Source: a virus
Taxonomy: Duplodnaviria; Heunggongvirae; Uroviricota; Caudoviricetes
DNA: 7,552 nt
Reading direction: 5' to 3' (one strand)
Virus record (IMG/VR): IMGVR_UViG_2744054627_000013
A model generated the notes under the pieces. It was not told the origin of the DNA, ran no database searches, and saw nothing but the letters and a program-made list of their open reading frames with translations. How positions within the stretch are numbered: the first letter of the stretch is position 1; each line of letters starts with the position of its first letter. This document shows, piece after piece, positions 1 through 7,552 of the stretch. A program made the position numbers and the translations under genes.

Positions 1-330
1 TGGCATGGAATCGAAATCAGTCGATACCCGCAGTATATATCGTGAACTGGGTGCAACGCTGAGTTACAACATGCGTCTGGGGAACGGTATGGAAATTGAA
101 CCCTGCCTGAAGGCGGCTGTGCGCAAAGAATTTGTCGATGATAACCGGGTGAAAGTGAATAGTGACGGTAATTTCGTCAATGATTTGTCGGGCAGACGTG
201 GAATATACCAGGCAGGTATTAAAGCCTCATTCAGCAGTACGTTAAGCGGGCATCTTGGGGTGGGGTATAGCCATGGTGCCGGTGTGGAATCCCGTGGAAC
301 GGGGTAGCTGGTGTGAACTGGTCGTTCTGA
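1..330 (+). CDS. 3' end of an autotransporter / outer-membrane beta-barrel gene (5'-partial, continues off the left edge); frameshifted about 12 codons before the natural stop as sequenced
   Basis: ORF 5-307 is Gly/Ser/Tyr-rich with alternating beta-strand pattern (...GIYQAGIKASFSSTLSGHLGVGYSHGAGVES). In the given frame it ends ...SRGTG, but shifting -1 at the CCC run at 291-293 gives ...ESPWNGVAGVNWSF-stop (TGA 328-330), a typical terminal-aromatic beta-barrel signature. Family assignment is from memory. Confidence 0.5.
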
Positions 331-342
331 CCATCAACGAAA

Positions 343-366
343 AAGCCCACATCTGTGGGCTTTCAT
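343..366. terminator. Hairpin between the autotransporter gene and the att core, possibly a bidirectional intrinsic terminator
   Basis: Inverted repeat AGCCCACA-TCT-TGTGGGCT (343-361) followed by TTTCAT on the + strand; on the minus strand the same stem is followed by TTTTCGTT. A second perfect palindrome GGAGCCGCGGCTCC lies at 374-387. Confidence 0.45.
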
Positions 367-488
367 GTCACCAGGAGCCGCGGCTCCTTTGCGTATCCTT
401 TTATGTCTCTTCACCGTCTGGTCGGTGTCCTGCTGAGACTGCTAACTTCCTGTTTTTATTGGTGTTGTCCTTATACCGTCCAATCATG

Positions 489-520
489 ATTGGTGGAGCT
501 GGCGGGAGTTGAACCCGTGT
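489..520 (-). other. ssrA: Attachment-site core: partial copy of the 3' end of the tmRNA gene ssrA (T-arm, acceptor strand and CCA); no ssrA body in the window
   Basis: Reverse complement of 489-520 reads GGACaCGGGTTCAACTCCCGCCAGCTCCACCA, matching the remembered E. coli ssrA 3' terminus (GGACGCGGGTTCAACTCCCGCCAGCTCCACCA) with one mismatch. Sequence to the right (521-860) is AT-rich and not tmRNA-like. Confidence 0.7.
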
Positions 521-732
521 CCATAGTTATGTAATTCATTGAATTTAAATAGCCAAATATTGTTGATTTTACAAGCGGCTCTTTTGCGGAACTTTTTCTG
601 TCCTGTTACTGTCTTACTATTTATTTTAAAATAGTTTCATTTGGAATTAATGGTTTGTGGTTGCAGTTTCGGAGATAGATAGCATTTTTTGCTAAAAAAT
701 ATTTTTATAAAAAAATGTGTGTAAAAATGATG

Positions 733-755
733 TTATGCACAGATTTATGCACAGA
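733..755 (+). promoter_or_regulatory. Tandem direct repeat TTATGCACAGA x2 (12-bp period), each with a DnaA-box-like TTATNCACA core, in the cargo-operon upstream region
   Basis: 733-743 and 745-755 are identical 11-mers separated by one T. An imperfect palindrome TTGTCAACAATATTATTGACTC (804-825) lies 50 bp downstream, about 125 bp before the ATG at 949. Confidence 0.3.
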
Positions 756-948
756 GGCTTTGTGATAAACCAGATTGTTTTGGATAAGTTTGTTTTTTGT
801 GATTTGTCAACAATATTATTGACTCTTGTTACTAAAGTGAGTGTTTTCTAAGGTGGTCAGAAGTTGTCCCTTCATGTAATCTTATTAGCCATAAAGAACA
901 AAAAATAATTCAACATCATTACCAACTATTTGTAAGATAAGGTTTTTA

Positions 949-1764
949 ATGTTGCAGCCAGCAAAAAAAGCATCAGTTATTAGCGCGCGGCTAACTAAAT
1001 ACCTCAAAGATGGAGTGAGGATTGATGACTTTAGCTTTAGAAGGATGTTACGTGAGATTGAAGCACTTAGAGATCCTGTCTCTGAGGACTATCTTTTAGC
1101 GTTGGTCTATGGTGCACATGGCCAAGTGAATGAGGCGATAGGCTTCTTTGAGCGTTCCTTGCAGGTATGCCATAATGAGGTTGTTGCAAAGAATTTTCTT
1201 GTTTTCTTGTCAGATTACGGTACGTTGAAGAAAAGCTTTGAAACAAGCATTAAGCTTGCTGAAAGCTTCATATCCCCGTTTATTTATCTTCAAGCTTATG
1301 AAAACTCCCTCTTTATGGGGAAGATGGCGTTGGCGGAGAAGTATTTCCAGTCATACTCTAAATTGTTCGGAGATAAGGAGCCTGAAAAAATGGACAACAA
1401 TTTTGATGAAGTTGTTTCCCAGGTCGAATCCTTTAAGCAACGTGCCGATCTTTCTGGTTTAGAATATGAACTTATTTTCAATAATGTAGCCAATGTCATG
1501 GATTCTCAGAAGGTTCATCTTTCGGGAATGCGTTTTTATAATATTTCGGAAGAGAAAGTGAATGCGATTGTATTCATGACAAAGTCTTCTGATGCTGAAC
1601 AAATCGCTGATATGAATATTGAGCTTGCTTTTTCAATGGCTGAGCACGATTGTTTAGTCGGTAAAGATTTTGCTGTTTGGTTTGAATGTAAAGACACACA
1701 TATTGAGCAGAATGCTATCTCCGAATTAGGTCTGATTACCCGGAGGGTTGCACATGCCGGTTAA
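949..1764 (+). CDS. Hypothetical protein, 271 aa, first gene of the att-int cargo cassette; predicted largely helical, no domain recognised
   Basis: Long ORF with ATG at 949 preceded by AAGG about 6 nt upstream; ends with in-frame tandem stops TAA-TAG (1762-1767); sits in an AT-rich segment with its own upstream region and downstream terminator. Confidence 0.6.
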   Translation: MLQPAKKASVISARLTKYLKDGVRIDDFSFRRMLREIEALRDPVSEDYLLALVYGAHGQVNEAIGFFERSLQVCHNEVVAKNFLVFLSDYGTLKKSFETSIKLAESFISPFIYLQAYENSLFMGKMALAEKYFQSYSKLFGDKEPEKMDNNFDEVVSQVESFKQRADLSGLEYELIFNNVANVMDSQKVHLSGMRFYNISEEKVNAIVFMTKSSDAEQIADMNIELAFSMAEHDCLVGKDFAVWFECKDTHIEQNAISELGLITRRVAHAG

Positions 1765-2136
1765 TAGTCAAGATTTTCTCGGTTTTGCAAAGACTGTCAT
1801 CAACGTAATGACGAAATCGGCTATCGAAATGCTATAGCAAGATCCTACTATGGCGCTTACCATCATGTCTTGCCTTGTATGGTAAACGGGCCGAAAGACA
1901 GTCATCAGGGGCTAATCAATTATTTGCAGGGCGATGCTTCAAGAGGAAGTGAAGTATATGAAGCTAGATATCTAAAAGGGATTAGTTTTATCCTGAGTCA
2001 ACTTAAAGCTCAGAGGATTGTTGCAGACTATCGACTTGATCAATCGGTCACTTCTAAACAGTCTGAAGTTGCGATTCTAACAACTGAGAGGCTCTTTGCT
2101 AAGTGTACGGAAATGCTTAAATCGAGAGCCTCCTAA
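1754..2136 (+). CDS. Hypothetical protein, second gene of the cargo cassette, about 127 aa if one -1 frameshift between about 1768 and 1837 is corrected; contains an R-x6-HH motif (RSYYGAYHH)
   Basis: ATG at 1754 with strong SD GGAGGG 6 nt upstream, overlapping the last codons of the 271-aa gene. That frame stops at 1835-1837, but the frame carrying the annotated 88-aa ORF (1870-2136) is open back to 1768, consistent with a single-base deletion. The fusion is an inference. Confidence 0.45.
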
Positions 2137-2142
2137 TTGATA

Positions 2143-2166
2143 AAGCCACTTAAGTGGCTTTTTTTG
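2143..2166. terminator. Intrinsic terminator ending the cargo operon; the stem also contains the integrase stop codon on the opposite strand
   Basis: Perfect palindrome AAGCCACTTAAGTGGCTT (2143-2160) followed by TTTTTTT on the + strand, directly after the cargo stop codon at 2134-2136. Confidence 0.6.
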
Positions 2167-3318
2167 TGATATTGCTGGTCGTATTACCGTCATATTCCTT
2201 TAAATATGAACCATAATGACGAAATAACATTTCCGGCCCTTTATGCCCCATTTGAGCTGCAAGCCAAAACAGGTTTGCTCCCGGCTGATATGGCGGGTGG
2301 CGAATGTATGCCTAGTTTGATATGGATTTCTGTAACGAATACCTGCTTTTCGCAATGTTGGCACCCATGCTTTTTCCTGATTGCATCAGCACTTGCCCAA
2401 GGCTTATTGGTCTTTGGATCTTCAAAGACAGTAGTATCCTTCATGAATGTAAATGGCTTCTGATTTATCAGCGCAACATTGCCTCTTCTGTCAGTTCAAC
2501 TTTCCGAGTACCTGCTTTTGTCTTTGTCCCTTTGATAACACCGACAACACTTGCGCTCTGGACATGGGCAGTTTTTCCAACAAAGTCGATATCACGCCAT
2601 CGAAGGCACATAATTCAGAACTACGCAGGCCTGTATGTATAGCGAACCGGAACAGATTTTCCCATTGTTTGTTTCCGGCTGCTGCTAGTAATGCATCAAC
2701 TTCTGCTGGTGATAGCGGATCAACTACGTAGCTGCTTTCTGCTTCTGACTTATCACTTTGGTAGCGCGAAGCTGTTACTAACGATACGGGGTTAATTTGA
2801 AGTACCCCATCGGTCACGGCTTCATCAAGTGCTGACCGCAGGAAAGATAACTGGTTGCGAATTGTTTTTAAGGTCGTTTTCTGATTTTGAATCCACGCTT
2901 TCAGGGTTGCTGGTGTTAATTCACTTGCAGGGCAAATGTGAAGTGAGGCTAACGCACTACGGCATTTTTTATAGCCACCAATCGTAGAGGGTGAAAGTTT
3001 TCTTGTTTCGCAGATTTCAAGATATTCGTCCAGGTACATCTTTACCGTTTTGCCTGCAGCAGCATTACCAAAAATTTTCAAACGAGCAGAACGGGGAAAA
3101 TATTCTGCATAAATGAATGTTCCCCTTTCGATCTTATTATGGATTTCGCCGAGTGTACGCTCGGCGTATTTAATGTTCTTTGGTGTTACTTCCAGATTGG
3201 AAAGCGGCTCACGACATCTAACTCCTTTGTAGGTGAAAGTTATATTGATCGTTTCTCCCTGGCGGTGTTTCCTGATTGTTACGCCGCGCGGTAGTTTGAG
3301 CAGTTTTGTCTGGCCCAT
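2150..3318 (-). pseudogene. int: Tyrosine integrase (lambda/P22-type with N-terminal arm-binding domain), about 390 aa when intact; interrupted by about 4 single-base frameshifts in the C-terminal half as sequenced
   Basis: ATG at 3318; N-terminal 275 aa in one frame (MGQTKLLKLPRGVTIRKH...HTGLRSSELCA). Integrase-like sequence continues in shifted frames: WRDIDFVGKTAHVQSASVVGVIKGTKTKAGTRKVELTEEAM, then ...FEDPKTNKPWASADAIRKK, then KAWVPTLRKAGIRYRNPYQTRHTFAT, then LFWLAAQMGHKGPEMLFRHYGSYLKEY... to TAA at 2150-2152. Catalytic R, K, H-x-x-R, H and Y are all present after correction. One shift is at a T5 run (2371-2375). Confidence 0.8.
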
Positions 3319-3485
3319 TTTGCAACCTCACTAAGATCAATCCACCTCTCCTTAACGCCTTCAACCTTTAAAACCTGAACACCTTCACGCCAAACACCGC
3401 GCTGTACACGTTTGTTTATTGCTTCAGGAGTTTCGCCAGTTTCTTTGCAATAAGTTGAGATAGGAACACAATCGAGGTTCAGCAT
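3279..3485 (-). CDS. xis: Excisionase (lambda Xis-like), 68 aa from the SD-supported start
   Basis: Directly upstream of int and overlapping its 5' end by about 40 nt, as in lambda. ATG at 3485 has GGAGAA about 5 nt upstream; product MLNLDCVPISTYCKETGETPEAINKRVQRGVWREGVQVLKVEG... resembles Xis-family winged-helix proteins. Longer N-terminal extensions (starts at 3497 or 3524) lack an SD. Confidence 0.6.
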   Translation of the reverse strand: MLNLDCVPISTYCKETGETPEAINKRVQRGVWREGVQVLKVEGVKERWIDLSEVAKWARQNCSNYRAA

Positions 3486-3526
3486 ACGTTTCTCCATTAT
3501 CCCGTCTGCACACGGGAGCAACATTA

Positions 3527-4393
3527 TTAACGAATAGTGTCGTTACTTTGAAGTACAGCAAATGCCATTAATACTTCTAAAGTATATCTTCTATAAAATT
3601 TAACAAAACCAACATAGAAAACATAGACGAAGAAAAAGCTAAGCATTATTGAAAGTAAACTATAAAGATAATCACTATGAGTACATAATCGATAAATAAA
3701 GGTTGGAACTGATACCCAAAATGAAATTATAAAGATTAAACATATGTTTCTGCAAAAACCATATAATGCAACATAGTTTTGAATTTTTGTTTGATGTTGT
3801 TTTGAAAACTCATAAACATAATGATATGCCAATCTGAAGAGATCATCATCAAGTCCGTTTTTATCTTGTAATAATTGGCGATTTGTTATGAACTTTTTCT
3901 CATAACCTTCTTTGATCATTAACCATGTTGTATTAGCTAAATGAAATGGTAGAGATTGAGAATAACATAGTTTTTGTGTTATAAAATCCCATAGTATTAT
4001 TGGACATAATACGCATTTGATTATGCGATTCTTTATTTTTGTTTTTTTATCAGCGCTTCTCTCATCGCATGATGGGCTACAAATGCTTTCTGAGGTATCT
4101 ATCAATTTTTTAAATAGATATTTGGAAGGATATCCTAATTCTTTATTCATGTATTTTTCGATAAAAAATGCTGACGTGATAGAAATAAAATGTCCAGCTA
4201 TATAAGATATAATAACTATTGAAGCGTAGTTCAAAATGCCAAAGATTTGACTTTGACCTCTGAGCAATTCACTTAAGTCAATAACAATATCTAGATCGAA
4301 TGTCAAACCACAGAAATACATTAATAGGATAAAAAAACCACCTGGTATTAAATATCCAAGAAAGTCATAGAATGAGAATGGATTTTGATTCAT
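3527..4393 (-). CDS. Hypothetical integral membrane protein, about 288 aa with about 5 predicted transmembrane helices, in a strongly AT-rich moron
   Basis: Long minus-strand ORF; ATG at 4393 preceded by GGAGA about 6 nt upstream (the TTG at 4417 in the ORF track is a less likely start). Hydrophobic stretches such as FFILLMYFCGLTF, IFGILNYASIVIISYIAGHFISITSAFFI, LIFIISFWVSVPTFIY and LLSIMLSFFFVYVFYVGFV. Composition is much more AT-rich than the flanking genes. Confidence 0.6.
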   Translation of the reverse strand: MNQNPFSFYDFLGYLIPGGFFILLMYFCGLTFDLDIVIDLSELLRGQSQIFGILNYASIVIISYIAGHFISITSAFFIEKYMNKELGYPSKYLFKKLIDTSESICSPSCDERSADKKTKIKNRIIKCVLCPIILWDFITQKLCYSQSLPFHLANTTWLMIKEGYEKKFITNRQLLQDKNGLDDDLFRLAYHYVYEFSKQHQTKIQNYVALYGFCRNICLIFIISFWVSVPTFIYRLCTHSDYLYSLLSIMLSFFFVYVFYVGFVKFYRRYTLEVLMAFAVLQSNDTIR

Positions 4394-4501
4394 TGTTGCT
4401 CTCCAATAATTTTTCAATTTGTAATATAACCTATATCTATATGTTAATAAATTACTTATATGTTCTTTTATGGCAGAGTTTGAATTCGTACGTGCTGATT
4501 T

Positions 4502-5024
4502 TTACGACTCAGTTAACTCTTTAAAGCGTTCCATAAACATCCCATAGGTATGGCCTGGCGACAGTGGAATAACTTTGAACATCTCTGTTGCCGGGATACC
4601 TTCCAGTACGGGCCAGAAAGAGCCATCATCAAGCCCGAGATCGCGGCGTTCGGTTGCCAGCATGATGAGATCGGCATATTTCACGGGCGTACTCATAACC
4701 GGGGTAACCCGTATTTCTCACGGATTACGGCGTCTATTTTTCTTCCATCCGTTTATAGTCAGGAAGAAGGCGTTTCAGTGGAGCCGGGATGTCCTGGCAA
4801 TACGCTTCTGTTGCATCATGCATTAACGCTTCAAAAGCAAATTCCTGCGGTACCAGCTGGCTGCAAAGCACCGCATGTTGGGCGACGCTGTAGAAGTGTG
4901 AAAGATGGCCGGCAAAGCGACAGATATTTGAAAGGGAAACCGCGATATCGTTAATATCGATGTTGTCTTTATTTATCCTGTCATAATAAAAATGTTTCCC
5001 GGAAAAAGTTTTAATAAATGACAT
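4502..5024 (-). pseudogene. yfdR: HD-domain phosphohydrolase, YfdR-like (5'-deoxynucleotidase family); split by two single-base homopolymer deletions as sequenced
   Basis: N-terminal part (ORF ending 4734) carries the HD signature region (...RFAGHLSHFYSVAQHAVLCSQLV...HDATEAY...) and ends ...KRMEEK-stop at a T5 run (4737-4741). The C-terminal part (4696-4502, MSTPVKYADLIMLATERRDLGLDDGSFWP...) is in another frame, restored after a G4 run at 4701-4704. ATG at 5024 has GGAG 6 nt upstream; a GTG at 5036 is an alternative start. Gene name is from memory of the CPS-53 yfdPQR module. Confidence 0.65.
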
Positions 5025-5157
5025 TTTGTTCTCCACTGTTTTATATGCGCTGCACCGCGCTGAATTTTGGTTAAAGAAAACCCTCCTCGCCTTCAGGCAT
5101 TATTGAGTCAATTACGTTTCCATAAATGCCCCCGCAGGGGCATTTGCAGTAATGAAA

Positions 5158-5982
5158 TCAGGCGGTGAAAGTCCCAATAAAGGTTTCTACTTTGCTGTCC
5201 TTGAATTTCTCAACAAGCAGATCACGAAATTCGTTAGCCATATCTTCCTGCACCGCTTCCAGCTGAATAATGCGCAGAACCAGTACAGGACGATCGCCAG
5301 TGATAATGCTGAGGCGTAATTTAAACGGACGTTCTTTCAGACCTTCAAACGGAACGCATTTAAACTCAAATGCCACTGGCATAATGTCTTTGGTCTTCGC
5401 TTCGACAGACTCCATCAGGGAGCGTTTGCCGCTGAAGTCATTATCTTCAAAATCAGCAGTCTGGTTTGCTTCAATCGTGATTTTACGGACCGCCGCAGCC
5501 GCTTTTGTTGCCTGAATGGTGTCACCATTAGCATCAAAGCCCACAAGGTAGTCGGCCCAGTCTTCGATCCATTCTGCCAGTGACTTCTGGGAGTTACGCT
5601 CGCCGTTAACAGACAACAGAGCAGAGAACGGTGCTGTCTTTTTCAGTTTGAGAGTGGCAGTGTTATCTGCGTGACCTGGCTCATCAATAGTACCCAGGTT
5701 AAGCACACTGACGGCACGCATATTATCGGCATCGATAAAGCAGCGGGTGCCTTCATCTGCAAGATCTTTAGAATAACGGGTAAAATCATCGATGCTGGCA
5801 GTGGAAAGTGCACCACGGAAACGGAAGCGATTTAAATTAAATTTTTCCAGATCATGAATGCGGAAATTCTCAGGCAATGCCACAGCATCGGCACCAATCT
5901 TACTGATAATTTCATTAACACCCTGAGCAGAAATAAGGGCATGGATTTGATTAATTGCGGTTGCGTCTAAGTTCTGAGACAT
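5158..5982 (-). CDS. yfdQ: YfdQ-like phage early protein (DUF2303-type), 274 aa
   Basis: Intact ORF with ATG at 5982 and GAGGA about 6 nt upstream; size and position directly upstream of the yfdR-like gene match the CPS-53 yfdQ-yfdR arrangement as remembered. Confidence 0.7.
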
Positions 5983-6047: not shown

Positions 6048-6410
6048 TTAACGACCTGCTGCGCGGAGTTTTCCGTCAGGTTCACCGGCAAGAGTCAGTA
6101 ATTGTCCCTGGTCTTCCTGCAGAATAGTCAGGCGACCACCGCGATTGACATACATCGGCGTTTCGGTGGTGTCTTCTTCGGAAATTTTCCCGCGGTTAGT
6201 TGGGCGAACATATGAGAGTTTGTGTTTGATTTTCACACGGTTCTCATCAAACGGTTCGATTTCCAGGTTGAGCGAGACCTTACCTTTGGTTTTCGTGTTC
6301 ATCACACCGGAAGCGACTTCACTGAGAACTGCGCCGATTTTGGTTTCAAATACGCCGCCGTCCAGCTCCCCGATAAATGCCTGCACATCAGTACTGCGTT
6401 CGCTAGCCAT
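6048..6410 (-). CDS. Phage early protein, 120 aa, possibly YfdP-like by size and synteny; first gene of the minus-strand early module in this window
   Basis: ATG at 6410 with GAGGAG about 7 nt upstream (MASERSTDVQAFIGELDGGVFETKIG...). The ORF track's longer 174-aa version starts in G+C-rich sequence without an RBS and has an Arg/Pro/His-rich, non-protein-like N-terminus. Confidence 0.65.
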   Translation of the reverse strand: MASERSTDVQAFIGELDGGVFETKIGAVLSEVASGVMNTKTKGKVSLNLEIEPFDENRVKIKHKLSYVRPTNRGKISEEDTTETPMYVNRGGRLTILQEDQGQLLTLAGEPDGKLRAAGR

Positions 6411-6875
6411 TTTGCTGCTCCTCATCATATCGACCCTGCAAGGTCGGTTAGTTTCTCCACAAAACAGAGAAGAACACCTGCGGTGACTGCCGCCCGGATG
6501 GATTGGGTTATGAGCCGTCGTCCGGTGATGCTCTTCTCTGTTTTGTAAAAGGACGGTACCAGCCGGAAGCAAGGGTACAAGCTGGTACCGCCAGGACTAC
6601 ACACAGCATAAAGTTGTGGTGCCGGGTGCCTCCCGGTGCCTGGCGAAGGTTGCACACCAGGCGGGTGGGTATCCACAGAAGGTCGACTGTCAGCCTCAAC
6701 CTTAACCCGCGTGCGCTGAGCCGCATTCACCACAACGCTAAGGATTCTCTCTGGTTGAAAATACTTAGCTGTTATGTGCCTGCTTTTAGCCACATCAGGC
6801 GAGGTGGACCTGGTTATTCCCCAACAACAAGGATTCGGTTAATCTGGTTATCCCCAACAACGCAAAAGGAAAGAA
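6411..6875. other. G+C-rich, hairpin-dense non-coding block between divergent genes; candidate structured RNA or complex regulatory region
   Basis: No ORF with a credible start or protein-like composition. 13-bp inverted repeat AAAACAGAGAAGA (6461-6473) / TCTTCTCTGTTTT (6532-6544) encloses 58 nt; 12-bp stem GACGGTACCAGC (6552-6563) / GCTGGTACCGCC (6581-6592) with one mismatch; further CCGGG/CCCGG hairpin at 6622-6636. Confidence 0.35.
6810..6861 (+). promoter_or_regulatory. Two direct repeats CTGGTTAT(T)CCCCAACAAC spaced 34 bp apart, immediately upstream of the + strand small gene; candidate operator or iteron sites
   Basis: Copies at 6810-6828 and 6844-6861, with a related CTGGTT at 6751-6756; the second copy ends 15 bp before the ATG at 6876. 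Confidence 0.35.
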
Positions 6876-7100
6876 ATGTCCGGTAATATCTATACGCTGT
6901 ACAAATCCCACTGTGAAAATGTTGGAAAGTATCGGGGCATTGAAATCAGTGGGGTAGTGTCATCAGTCGAAATAAGCAAAGTTGAATCAAGGGCAACATT
7001 ACTTACTCTTTTGGACCTTGTCTTACATGAGCACCGGAAGAAATTCGGCACTCCCTATAATCAGTTGAATGGGAAAAGGCTCTGGTTCACCTTATTCTGA
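6876..7100 (+). CDS. Hypothetical small protein, 74 aa, first of an overlapping pair (or N-terminal part of one about 143-aa protein if an A-run at 7074-7077 carries a deletion)
   Basis: ATG at 6876 with AAGGA 5 nt upstream; AT-rich; stop TGA overlaps the next ATG (TGATG at 7098-7102). Confidence 0.45.
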   Translation: MSGNIYTLYKSHCENVGKYRGIEISGVVSSVEISKVESRATLLTLLDLVLHEHRKKFGTPYNQLNGKRLWFTLF

Positions 7101-7309
7101 TGAAGCATCACTGGATGCCAAAACAGATTAATGAGATGAAATTTGATGAACTTCTTCTTTCAATTCAGGATGAACTCACACTTGATAAAATAAGCGTAAC
7201 CGCCCAGAAATTTTTAGATTATCGAGACTGGAGATCACAAATTCATCACTTTGATGATTTTGACGAAAATGAATGGGATCCTAATTTGTCTGCACAATAT
7301 CTAAAGTAA
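7100..7309 (+). CDS. Hypothetical small protein, 69 aa, acidic C-terminus (DDFDENEWDP); overlaps the upstream gene by one base
   Basis: ATG at 7100 within TGATG; its frame is open upstream to 7061, so fusion with the 74-aa ORF cannot be excluded; 3' end overlaps the convergent minus-strand gene by 29 nt. Confidence 0.45.
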   Translation: MKHHWMPKQINEMKFDELLLSIQDELTLDKISVTAQKFLDYRDWRSQIHHFDDFDENEWDPNLSAQYLK

Positions 7310-7487
7310 CATCCTGTGATAAAACCGTGATTTCCTGATCCAGTTTTTTTAAGGAGTCTATTGTTTCCTGTCGATAAGACAGCACTTCACGAAGCTGGTT
7401 TATAGCTGCCAGCTTCTTTGTCATCCACTCATAAATTTCCTCATCTGTGTAGCCAGGCGCGACGATTTTGGGTTCTGTTTTGTGCAT
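7281..7487 (-). CDS. Hypothetical small phage protein, 68 aa
   Basis: ATG at 7487 with GAGGAG about 7 nt upstream (MHKTEPKIVAPGYTDEEIYEWMTKKLAAINQLREVL...); the track's start at 7502 is a TTG without an RBS. Confidence 0.5.
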   Translation of the reverse strand: MHKTEPKIVAPGYTDEEIYEWMTKKLAAINQLREVLSYRQETIDSLKKLDQEITVLSQDVTLDIVQTN

Positions 7488-7552
7488 TTCACATCTCCTC
7501 AAGTTATCAGTTACTTGTTGATGGGACCAGATTGTTAAGAGCTAAGCGTCGT

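What the first reader, a model, noticed from the sequence alone, without database searches (positions are those of the whole stretch)
291..4741. Recurrent single-base deletions, several in homopolymer runs, break multiple genes: sequencing artefact versus genuine decay
Frame corrections are needed at a C3 run (291-293) in the autotransporter, at about four sites in the integrase (one at a T5 run, 2371-2375), and at a G4 run (4701-4704) and a T5 run (4737-4741) in the yfdR-like gene. All are -1 events and the encoded proteins are otherwise well conserved including catalytic residues. This favours homopolymer-biased sequencing error over slow pseudogenisation, although a recently inactivated cryptic prophage is possible. 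It matters because an intact int and xis would mean a potentially mobile element.
Basis: seen in the sequence. Interest (0 to 1): 0.5.

Follow-up and report, generated by a model that had tools for sequence, protein, structure and literature searches.

The report
Homopolymer sequencing errors, not gene decay
The broken integrase, yfdR and autotransporter genes are almost certainly damaged by single-base under-calls at runs of identical bases in a low-quality draft E. coli assembly; restoring one base per site gives back an ordinary, intact prophage integration module already known from many genomes.

Summary
The window is a whole contig (LSBR01000823.1) of NCBI draft assembly GCA_001641855.1. 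It lacks one base at 16 sites relative to every accurate E. coli relative examined. Fifteen of the 16 sites are homopolymer runs. There are no single-base homopolymer insertions. The hit rate per run rises from 0.03% for single bases to 10-22% for runs of 5-7.

Nine deletions break five genes: the ypjA-type beta-barrel, a 127-aa gene, the integrase (four sites), yfdR (two sites) and an ECs1072-family gene. Seven lie in non-coding DNA.

Against strain 1500 the window has one substitution and 15 deletions. The relatives differ from each other by about 45 substitutions per indel. None of 344-4,309 complete genomes shares the deletions tested at sites 291, 2371 and 7074, or any of the four integrase deletions. 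Only SCU-306 shares the two yfdR deletions, and that assembly used nanopore reads and has its own cluster of homopolymer deletions. Restoring the bases reproduces four RefSeq proteins exactly.

The underlying feature is a known lambdoid prophage int-xis module at a tmRNA-type att site. Interest is low.

The parts
5..330 (+). C-terminal beta-barrel segment of a ypjA/EhaD-type autotransporter. As given, the ORF stops early at 307. With one C restored it ends ...ESPWNGVAGVNWSF* at about 330.
   Evidence: Pfam Autotransporter PF03797, E = 2.8e-11, on the E14 version. Annotation in E14 and EcE. Alignment.
291..293 (+). Deletion site 1: C3 here, C4 in all relatives. Frameshifts the autotransporter tail.
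   Evidence: None of 4,309 complete genomes has C3; the best identity is 76/77.
491..538 (-). tmRNA (ssrA) 3'-end fragment. This is the att core marking the left boundary of the prophage.
   Evidence: Rfam RF00023, 21.1 bits, E = 1.9e-5. ARAGORN finds no whole gene. Homology with five relatives begins at 483-491, with another integrase-bearing island upstream.
793..798 (.). Deletion site 2: T6 here, T7 in 10 of 10 relatives. Intergenic.
949..1764 (+). 271-aa hypothetical cargo gene between att and int. Intact.
   Evidence: Identical to WP_045171897.1 of strain 1500. phrog_17809, function unknown.
1754..2136 (+). 127-aa hypothetical gene (WP_001145022.1 in relatives). Split here by deletion site 3.
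   Evidence: phrog_5176.
1789..1791 (+). Deletion site 3: A3 here, A4 in 10 of 10 relatives.
2150..3318 (-). Tyrosine integrase, 390 aa when corrected. Broken into five frame segments by four deletions, all inside the catalytic domain.
   Evidence: Pfam Arm-DNA-bind_2, Phage_int_SAM_5 and Phage_integrase on the strain 1500 version. The corrected window encodes a protein identical to WP_032206590.1.
2280..2282 (-). Deletion site 4: C3 here, C4 in relatives (integrase).
   Evidence: 28 genomes match 411/415 and none matches better.
2371..2375 (-). Deletion site 5: T5 here, T6 in relatives (integrase).
   Evidence: 0 of 344 genomes share it.
2474..2474 (-). Deletion site 6: C here, CC in relatives (integrase).
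2605..2606 (-). Deletion site 7: GG here. Nine relatives have GGG; CFT073 also has one extra base, of a different kind (integrase).
3279..3485 (-). Excisionase, 68 aa. Intact in the window.
   Evidence: phrog_2917 excisionase, E = 7.7e-44. Identical to WP_001331174.1.
3527..4393 (-). 288-aa hypothetical protein of unknown function, probably membrane-spanning (inferred from its hydrophobic sequence, not tested). Intact.
   Evidence: Identical to WP_001075212.1. phrog_12528.
4502..5024 (-). yfdR, an HD-domain 5'-deoxynucleotidase, 174 aa when corrected. Broken by two deletions.
   Evidence: PGAP annotation in relatives. phrog_318, E = 1e-106. The corrected protein is identical to WP_021530638.1.
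4701..4704 (-). Deletion site 8: G4 here. Eight relatives have G5 and two have a different extra base.
   Evidence: Shared only by SCU-306.
4737..4741 (-). Deletion site 9: T5 here, T6 in 10 of 10 relatives.
   Evidence: 1 of 2,880 genomes shares it (SCU-306). Also seen in Logan ERR2235316.
5037..5099 (.). yfdQ-yfdR intergenic stretch with private changes: +T and +TT (5037-5041), +CCT (5082-5084), and deletion site 10, the loss of a non-run G between 5098 and 5099.
   Evidence: No complete genome among 2,775 shares them; the best full-length identity is 94.7%.
5158..5982 (-). yfdQ (DUF2303), 274 aa. Intact.
6048..6410 (-). yfdP, 120 aa. Intact.
6515..6516 (.). Deletion site 11: C2 here, C3 in 10 of 10 relatives. 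Non-coding.
6547..6550 (.). Deletion site 12: A4 here, A5 in 7 of 10 relatives. At the 3' edge of the STnc100-like hit.
6870..6872 (.). Deletion site 13: A3 here, A4 in relatives. Lies a few bases upstream of the ECs1072-family start codon.
6876..7309 (+). ECs1072-family phage-associated gene, 144 aa when corrected. Split into 74-aa and 69-aa ORFs.
   Evidence: phrog_5286.
7074..7077 (+). Deletion site 14: A4 here, A5 in relatives.
   Evidence: 0 of 420 complete genomes share it. Also seen in Logan ERR2235316.
7523..7525 (.). Deletion site 15: G3 here, G4 in relatives. Intergenic.
7537..7538 (.). Deletion site 16: A2 here, A3 in relatives. Intergenic.

Best explanation
The frameshifts are consensus errors of the assembly, not mutations of the organism. 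The window is the whole 7,552-base contig LSBR01000823.1 of draft assembly GCA_001641855.1; the contig number implies at least 823 contigs.

The sequencing chemistry or consensus step under-called the length of homopolymer runs by one base at 15 sites and dropped one further base. This behaviour is typical of flow-based platforms (454, Ion Torrent) and of nanopore consensus. That attribution rests on my own knowledge, and the platform used for this assembly is not known.

The real DNA most likely carries C4, T7, A4, C4, T6, CC, GGG, G5, T6, C3, A5, A4, A5, G4 and A3 at these runs. It would then encode an intact ypjA-type beta-barrel, an intact 390-aa tyrosine integrase next to an intact excisionase, and intact yfdR, 127-aa and ECs1072-family genes. 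Together these form the left arm of a lambdoid prophage sitting at a tmRNA 3'-end att site.

Shown: the error pattern, its absence from accurate genomes, and exact restoration of known proteins. Inferred: the platform-level cause, and that the element can still excise.
For: 1. Source. The truncated 275-aa integrase ORF occurs on exactly one contig in the collection, and that contig is the window.

2. Pattern. Sixteen one-base deletions are seen against E14, and 11-16 against each of the ten complete-genome relatives, depending on how much of the window each covers. Every covered site shows an extra base in every relative.

3. Run dependence. Fifteen of 16 sites are in runs. The hit rate per run is 0.03, 0.1, 0.9, 5.2, 10, 22 and 14% for lengths 1 to 7. 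P(at least 14 of 16 in runs of 3 or more) = 2.8e-8. The split is 16 deletions to 0 single-base homopolymer insertions.

4. No substitutions to match. Against strain 1500 there is 1 substitution and 15 deletions over 7,060 bases. The ten relatives differ among themselves by 3,325 substitutions and 74 indel events; Fisher p = 1.8e-28.

5. No sign of selection or of targeting. Nine deletions lie in the 80% of bases that are coding and seven in the 20% that are not. One of them is in chromosomal ypjA, outside the prophage.

6. Population check in 5,426 complete genomes.
- C3 at 291: 0 of 4,309.
- T5 at 2371: 0 of 344.
- All four integrase sites: the best match is 411/415, in 28 genomes.
- A4 at 7074: 0 of 420.
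- T5 at 4737: 1 of 2,880.

7. The one sharer is itself suspect. SCU-306 has six missing bases (five deletion events), all but one in homopolymer runs, against 8 substitutions in 3 kb versus CFT073, and PGAP flags two adjacent genes as frameshifted. Its chromosome was assembled from nanopore plus MiSeq reads (PMC7407071). A Logan contig (ERR2235316) on a third allelic background shares the deletions at 4737, 6547 and 7074 and adds private ones. The same runs therefore fail repeatedly in error-prone assemblies.

8. Restoration. Adding the 16 bases gives integrase, YfdR, the 127-aa protein and the ECs1072-family protein 100% identical to the RefSeq proteins of strain 1500.
Against: - No reads, quality values or platform metadata could be inspected, so the attribution is indirect.
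- One deletion (G at 5098/5099) is not in a run.
- The same 62-base intergenic stretch carries private insertions (+T, +TT, +CCT) that simple under-calling does not explain.
- Three deletions hit very short runs (C2, G3, A3).
- Two yfdR deletions recur in a RefSeq genome labelled complete. Taken at face value, that could be read as natural recurrence.
- Only one contig of the assembly was available, so I could not show that the error rate is genome-wide.
Confidence: 0.93

Rival explanations
1. Genuine recent inactivation of a cryptic prophage. Real slipped-strand deletions accumulated in a no-longer-selected element, knocking out int, yfdR and other genes.
For: The affected genes are dispensable prophage or accessory genes. 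ypjA is a pseudogene in some accurate genomes, such as E14 and R18. Homopolymer runs are also the natural hotspots for slippage (PMC8510543).
Against: - Sixteen indels with about one substitution is roughly 600-fold off the natural ratio at this very locus.
- There are no larger deletions and no IS insertions. The only insertions are three short private ones at 5037-5084.
- Seven of the 16 hits are in non-coding DNA, and one is outside the prophage.
- No accurate genome shares any tested site.
- The broken genes have zero amino-acid changes once the frame is restored.
Confidence: 0.03
2. A mismatch-repair-deficient (mutator) lineage in which homopolymer slippage is greatly elevated, giving real frameshifts genome-wide.
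For: In MMR-deficient E. coli, indel rates rise exponentially with run length (PMC8510543). This resembles the run-length dependence seen here.
Against: - MMR-deficient mutation-accumulation lines give 30,061 base substitutions to 5,324 indels, about 5.6 to 1 (PMC8510543). Here the ratio is 1 to 15; P = 6e-12 under that spectrum.
- At 2.1 frameshifts per kb, almost every gene would be broken if the rate were genome-wide, which is not viable (inference).
- There is a strict deletion-only bias in runs.
Confidence: 0.02
3. Functional frameshifting. The runs would be phase-variation switches (contingency loci) or programmed ribosomal or transcriptional slippage sites, so that full-length proteins are still made.
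For: Autotransporter adhesins are sometimes phase-variable, and homopolymer tracts can mediate switching (my own knowledge).
Against: - The runs are short (1-6 bases in the window) and scattered, four of them within one integrase gene.
- They are monomorphic in hundreds to thousands of accurate genomes.
- Orthologues encode the proteins in a single frame.
- Seven sites are non-coding.
Confidence: 0.01

Closest known systems
Homopolymer-length indel errors in draft and long-read bacterial assemblies (454 or Ion Torrent flow-space under-calls; nanopore consensus deletions), which create false frameshifted pseudogenes
   Same: The events are single-base, deletion-only and confined to homopolymers. 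Their rate rises with run length and is blind to coding status. They are absent from accurate assemblies of the same sequence and recur at the same runs in other error-prone assemblies.
   Different: The platform of GCA_001641855.1 is not known to me. One non-run deletion and a small cluster of private insertions at 5037-5084 do not fit the simple model.
Lambdoid prophage left arm carrying int, xis, yfdR, yfdQ and yfdP, as annotated in E. coli E14, 1500, SFE8, CFT073 and others. The yfd gene names come from the K-12 cryptic prophage CPS-53/KpLE1 (my own knowledge).
   Same: Gene order and sequence match: 99.7% identity to strain 1500, and all differences but one are indels. The corrected proteins are identical to RefSeq entries.
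   Different: Nothing biological can be shown to differ. The window differs only by the artefactual deletions and the private intergenic changes.
Islands integrated at ssrA (tmRNA), such as CP4-57 of E. coli K-12, which lies between ssrA and ypjA (my own knowledge)
   Same: The att core equals the 3' end of tmRNA. The element neighbours ypjA. In several genomes a second integrase-bearing island abuts the same att fragment, giving tandem occupancy.
   Different: Both the integrase and the gene content differ. Here the element is a lambda-like early-left operon rather than the CP4-57 gene set. The full ssrA gene is not in the window.

Membership tests
Homopolymer sequencing/consensus artefact | Indels are confined to homopolymer runs, and their frequency rises with run length | tested here: met
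   15 of 16 are in runs. The rate per run goes from 0.03% (length 1) to 22% (length 6). P = 2.8e-8 for runs of 3 or more.
Homopolymer sequencing/consensus artefact | Systematic direction (under-call), with no matching excess of substitutions | tested here: met
   16 deletions and 0 single-base homopolymer insertions. 1 substitution against 15 deletions versus strain 1500.
Homopolymer sequencing/consensus artefact | Errors fall in coding and non-coding DNA alike, inside and outside the mobile element | tested here: met
   9 lie in CDS (80% of bases) and 7 in non-coding DNA. One is in chromosomal ypjA.
Homopolymer sequencing/consensus artefact | Absent from independent accurate assemblies of the same sequence | tested here: met
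   10 of 10 relatives have the extra base at every covered site. 0/4,309, 0/344 and 0/420 genomes share sites 291, 2371 and 7074. The best integrase match is 411/415. The only sharer of the yfdR sites is SCU-306, which has its own cluster of homopolymer deletions.
Homopolymer sequencing/consensus artefact | Raw reads or quality values show ambiguous run length at the sites | not testable with these tools
   No reads or assembly metadata for GCA_001641855.1 are available here, and no paper mentions the accession.
Genuine pseudogenes / decaying cryptic prophage | Inactivating lesions are inherited, that is, shared by related loci on the same haplotype | tested here: not met
   The closest haplotypes (strains 1500 and 98208, 1-2 substitutions away) have none of the deletions. 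The partial sharers sit on different haplotypes.
Genuine pseudogenes / decaying cryptic prophage | A mixed lesion spectrum: substitutions, stops, larger deletions, IS elements | tested here: not met
   The lesions are almost all one-base deletions. The corrected proteins are 100% identical to the intact RefSeq proteins.
Mismatch-repair-deficient mutator spectrum | Base substitutions outnumber small indels, about 5.6 to 1 in E. coli mutation-accumulation lines | tested here: not met
   Observed 1 to 15. P = 6e-12 (PMC8510543).
Phase-variable contingency locus / programmed frameshift | Run length is polymorphic in populations, or the frameshift is conserved in orthologues | tested here: not met
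   The runs are monomorphic in accurate genomes and the orthologues read in a single frame.
Tyrosine-recombinase integration module (int + xis at a tRNA/tmRNA att site) | Integrase with an arm-binding N-terminal domain, a SAM-like core-binding domain and a Phage_integrase catalytic domain | tested here: met
   PF12167 (E = 9e-24), PF13102 and PF00589 (E = 8e-17) hit the strain 1500 protein, which equals the corrected window protein. As given, the window ORF retains only the N-terminal part in frame.
Tyrosine-recombinase integration module (int + xis at a tRNA/tmRNA att site) | An adjacent excisionase, and an att core matching the 3' end of the target RNA gene | tested here: met
   phrog_2917 excisionase, E = 7.7e-44, overlapping the start of int. 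tmRNA 3'-end fragment at 491-538.
Tyrosine-recombinase integration module (int + xis at a tRNA/tmRNA att site) | The element actually excises and integrates | not testable with these tools
   Only indirect evidence exists: the same module occurs next to three different left flanks in different genomes.

The most novel reading that the evidence does not exclude
The deletions are real and reflect an unusual, strongly deletion-biased slippage process that produces frameshifts with almost no base substitutions. One example would be a replication or repair defect with a -1 homopolymer signature acting in this strain. The same runs in yfdR would then be natural hotspots that also mutated independently in SCU-306 and in the ERR2235316 sample.
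Probability: 0.02. Interest if true: 0.5.

Novelty: not a real feature. Interest (0 to 1): 0.05.

Why it matters
The importance is mainly practical.

Taken at face value, the contig would be annotated with five false pseudogenes, including a dead integrase, and the prophage would be scored as immobile. In fact the element is the ordinary intact int-xis module found in dozens of accurate E. coli genomes.

The same runs fail in other public assemblies, including a RefSeq genome labelled complete (SCU-306) and a Logan assembly. Pseudogene or "decaying prophage" counts drawn from such data are therefore inflated. At 2.1 indels per kb, this whole draft assembly should be treated as unreliable for any frame-dependent analysis.

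No new biology is indicated.

Tried and rejected
- Pseudogenisation by descent. I looked for any relative with the same frameshifts among ten fetched loci and by site-specific megablast in 5,426 complete genomes. Only SCU-306 (the two yfdR sites) and a Logan contig (three sites) share any. Both are on other haplotypes and both carry their own homopolymer deletions.
- Mutator spectrum. Rejected on the substitution-to-indel ratio.
- Phase variation or programmed frameshifting. Rejected because the runs are short, scattered and monomorphic.
- Platform of origin. Searches for papers naming LSBR01, GCA_001641855 or ERR2235316 found nothing. I could not establish the sequencing technology of the source assembly.
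- Footnote in PMC7407071. I tried to learn whether the SCU-306 chromosome had a special caveat. The table lists Unicycler with nanopore plus MiSeq reads, and the meaning of the footnote mark stayed unclear.
- yfdR N-terminal ORF. An exact-protein look-up of the GTG-started 100-aa fragment found nothing, because the gene caller used a different start.
- Substitution cluster at 95-106. This is not an error. It matches a paralogous autotransporter remnant next to minE.
- Defence-system annotation. PADLOC and Pfam scans of the att-int cargo genes and of the 288-aa protein gave only weak hits, and I did not pursue them.

Full report
**What the window is.** The 7,552 bases are E. coli DNA. The features, left to right, are:

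| Coordinates | Strand | Feature |
|---|---|---|
| 5-~330 | + | C-terminal beta-barrel of a ypjA/EhaD-type autotransporter |
| 491-538 | - | 48-base fragment matching the 3' end of tmRNA |
| 949-2136 | + | two hypothetical genes |
| 2150-3318 | - | tyrosine integrase |
| 3279-3485 | - | excisionase, overlapping the start of int |
| 3527-4393 | - | 288-aa protein, function unknown |
| 4502-5024 | - | yfdR |
| 5158-5982 | - | yfdQ |
| 6048-6410 | - | yfdP |
| 6544-6766 | - | STnc100-like stretch |
| 6876-7309 | + | ECs1072-family gene |
| 7281-7487 | - | 68-aa gene |

From 949 onward this is the left arm of a lambdoid prophage. An exact-protein look-up with the truncated integrase ORF shows that the window is the complete contig LSBR01000823.1 of NCBI draft assembly GCA_001641855.1, and that this ORF exists nowhere else in the collection.

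**Checking the observation.** Megablast against 5,426 complete E. coli genomes found 42 genomes carrying at least 80% of the window. The best is strain E14, where 7,550 window bases correspond to 7,560 bases. Pairwise alignment to E14 shows 16 positions where the window lacks exactly one base. I fetched ten relatives (E14, 1500, CFT073, UID2309220027, 98208, SFE8, EcE.CRE.COL, R18, YF-1, FEX669). Every relative has an extra base at every site its homology covers.

The sites, in window coordinates with the run length in relatives, are:

| Window site | Window | Relatives | Location |
|---|---|---|---|
| 291-293 | C3 | C4 | autotransporter |
| 793-798 | T6 | T7 | non-coding |
| 1789-1791 | A3 | A4 | 127-aa gene |
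| 2280-2282 | C3 | C4 | integrase |
| 2371-2375 | T5 | T6 | integrase |
| 2474 | C | CC | integrase |
| 2605-2606 | GG | GGG | integrase |
| 4701-4704 | G4 | G5 | yfdR |
| 4737-4741 | T5 | T6 | yfdR |
| 5098/5099 | (none) | G, not in a run | non-coding |
| 6515-6516 | C2 | C3 | non-coding |
| 6547-6550 | A4 | A5 | non-coding |
| 6870-6872 | A3 | A4 | non-coding |
| 7074-7077 | A4 | A5 | ECs1072-family gene |
| 7523-7525 | G3 | G4 | non-coding |
| 7537-7538 | A2 | A3 | non-coding |

**Is it more than chance?** In the E14 reference, 21% of bases lie in runs of 3 or more, yet 14 of 16 deletions do (P = 2.8e-8). The hit rate per run climbs steeply with length: 0.03, 0.1, 0.9, 5.2, 10, 22 and 14% for lengths 1 to 7. 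There are 16 deletions and no single-base homopolymer insertions (p = 3e-5).

**What kind of process does this?** Four observations separate sequencing error from real mutation.

1. The substitution background is essentially nil. Against strain 1500 the window has one substitution and 15 one-base deletions over 7,060 bases. Against strain 98208 it has two substitutions, one of them at the edge of homology.
   - The ten accurate relatives differ from one another by 3,325 substitutions and only 74 indel events, about 45 to 1 (Fisher p = 1.8e-28).
   - Even mismatch-repair-deficient E. coli accumulate 30,061 substitutions per 5,324 small indels (PMC8510543). Under that spectrum, 15 or more indels among 16 events has P = 6e-12.

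2. The deletions ignore function. Nine fall in the 80% of bases that are coding and seven in the 20% that are not. One lies in chromosomal ypjA, outside the prophage.

3. Accurate genomes do not have them.
   - C3 at 291: 0 of 4,309 genomes.
   - T5 at 2371: 0 of 344.
   - A4 at 7074: 0 of 420.
   - Integrase stretch 2240-2650: 28 genomes match 411/415, and none matches better.

4. Adding the 16 bases makes the window encode integrase, YfdR, the 127-aa protein and the ECs1072-family protein 100% identical to the RefSeq proteins of strain 1500. The damaged genes carry no other change at all.

**The apparent exceptions.** One complete genome, SCU-306, matches the window exactly across the T5 site of yfdR.
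- That locus is of the CFT073 haplotype: 8 substitutions from CFT073, about 50 from the window's haplotype.
- It lacks six bases in five deletion events over 3 kb, including both yfdR sites plus T6 to T5, A7 to A5 and one further T.
- PGAP marks yfdR and the neighbouring 288-aa gene as frameshifted.
- The chromosome was assembled from nanopore and MiSeq reads (PMC7407071).

A Logan assembly of run ERR2235316 sits on a third haplotype. It shares the deletions at 4737, 6547 and 7074 and adds its own in yfdQ and elsewhere.

Shared deletions on unrelated haplotypes, found only in assemblies that also carry private homopolymer deletions, are what systematic under-calling of the longest runs predicts. 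They are not evidence of inheritance.

**Best explanation.** The frameshifts are homopolymer under-calls in a low-quality draft. The density, 2.1 per kb, would break nearly every gene if it applied genome-wide, which is incompatible with a living cell. I could not examine other contigs, so this last step is an inference. The platform is unknown. A contig number of at least 823 and a 7.5-kb contig suggest a short-read flow-based technology rather than long reads, but that is only my inference. Confidence in the artefact reading is about 0.93.

**What does not fit neatly.** Within 5037-5099, the yfdQ-yfdR intergenic region, the window has +T, +TT and +CCT and lacks a non-run G. None of 2,775 complete genomes shares this configuration. 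These may be local consensus errors of another kind, such as low coverage or a mixture of paralogous prophage copies, or they may be real private changes. I cannot tell which.

**What is really there biologically.** The underlying feature is a known prophage integration module.
- The integrase has Arm-DNA-bind_2, SAM-like and Phage_integrase domains.
- The adjacent 68-aa protein is a PHROG excisionase (E = 7.7e-44).
- The left boundary coincides with the tmRNA 3'-end fragment. In five relatives the homology starts at 483-491, with another integrase-bearing island upstream. In others ypjA or glaH lies upstream.

**Novelty and scores.** This is not a real biological feature, and the underlying module is already known. 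Interest is about 0.05. The most novel reading still open is a genuine deletion-only slippage process. I give it about 2% probability.

Noticed in passing
window 1-140 (substitution cluster at 95-106): The first ~140 bases carry the allele of a paralogous autotransporter remnant next to ymgJ/minE (strain 120899), including a Trp-to-Cys codon change. From about 145 onward the sequence is ypjA-type. Either the contig end is chimeric at a repeat, or this is natural gene conversion.
   Followed up: partly
window 5037-5099: Private +T, +TT and +CCT insertions and the loss of a non-run G lie in the yfdQ-yfdR intergenic region, just upstream of the yfdR ribosome-binding site and in a short hairpin after yfdQ. 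None of 2,775 complete genomes has them, and simple homopolymer under-calling does not explain them.
   Followed up: partly
window 6544-6766 (-); L002 7558-7781 (-): A sub-threshold match to the sRNA family STnc100 (RF02076) scores 39.4 bits in the window and 42.4 bits in an accurate relative, against a gathering score of 47. PGAP annotates a 'frameshifted hypothetical protein' over this stretch in nine of the ten relatives, which may be a spurious pseudogene call over an RNA gene.
   Followed up: partly
window 949-2136 (+): A two-gene cargo sits between the att core and int. It comprises a 271-aa protein (phrog_17809, weak TPR hit) and an overlapping 127-aa protein (phrog_5176, weak PADLOC HEPN_IX hit, E = 1e-3). 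The position is typical of prophage-borne defence or moron genes. Function is unknown.
   Followed up: partly
window 3527-4393 (-): A 288-aa hydrophobic, probably membrane-spanning protein lies between xis and yfdR. It has a weak PADLOC hit to Csx27 (a type VI-B CRISPR-associated membrane protein, E = 1.4e-5) and no Pfam domain.
   Followed up: no
L014 (NZ_CP053231.1, 1998059-2001125): The RefSeq 'complete genome' of E. coli SCU-306 lacks six bases (five deletion events, all but one in homopolymer runs) in 3 kb of the homologous prophage. They break yfdR and the 288-aa gene and include the same two yfdR sites as the window. This is probably residual long-read error.
   Followed up: partly
L013 (Logan ERR2235316 contig 10772): Another public assembly of a related prophage has homopolymer deletions that split yfdR and yfdQ. 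It shares the window's deletions at 4737, 6547 and 7074.
   Followed up: partly
window 483-538; L002 1-1500, L005, L006, L009, L010: In five relatives a different integrase-bearing island abuts the same tmRNA-type att fragment. In others ypjA or glaH is the left neighbour. This points to tandem or alternative occupancy of the ssrA attachment site.
   Followed up: no
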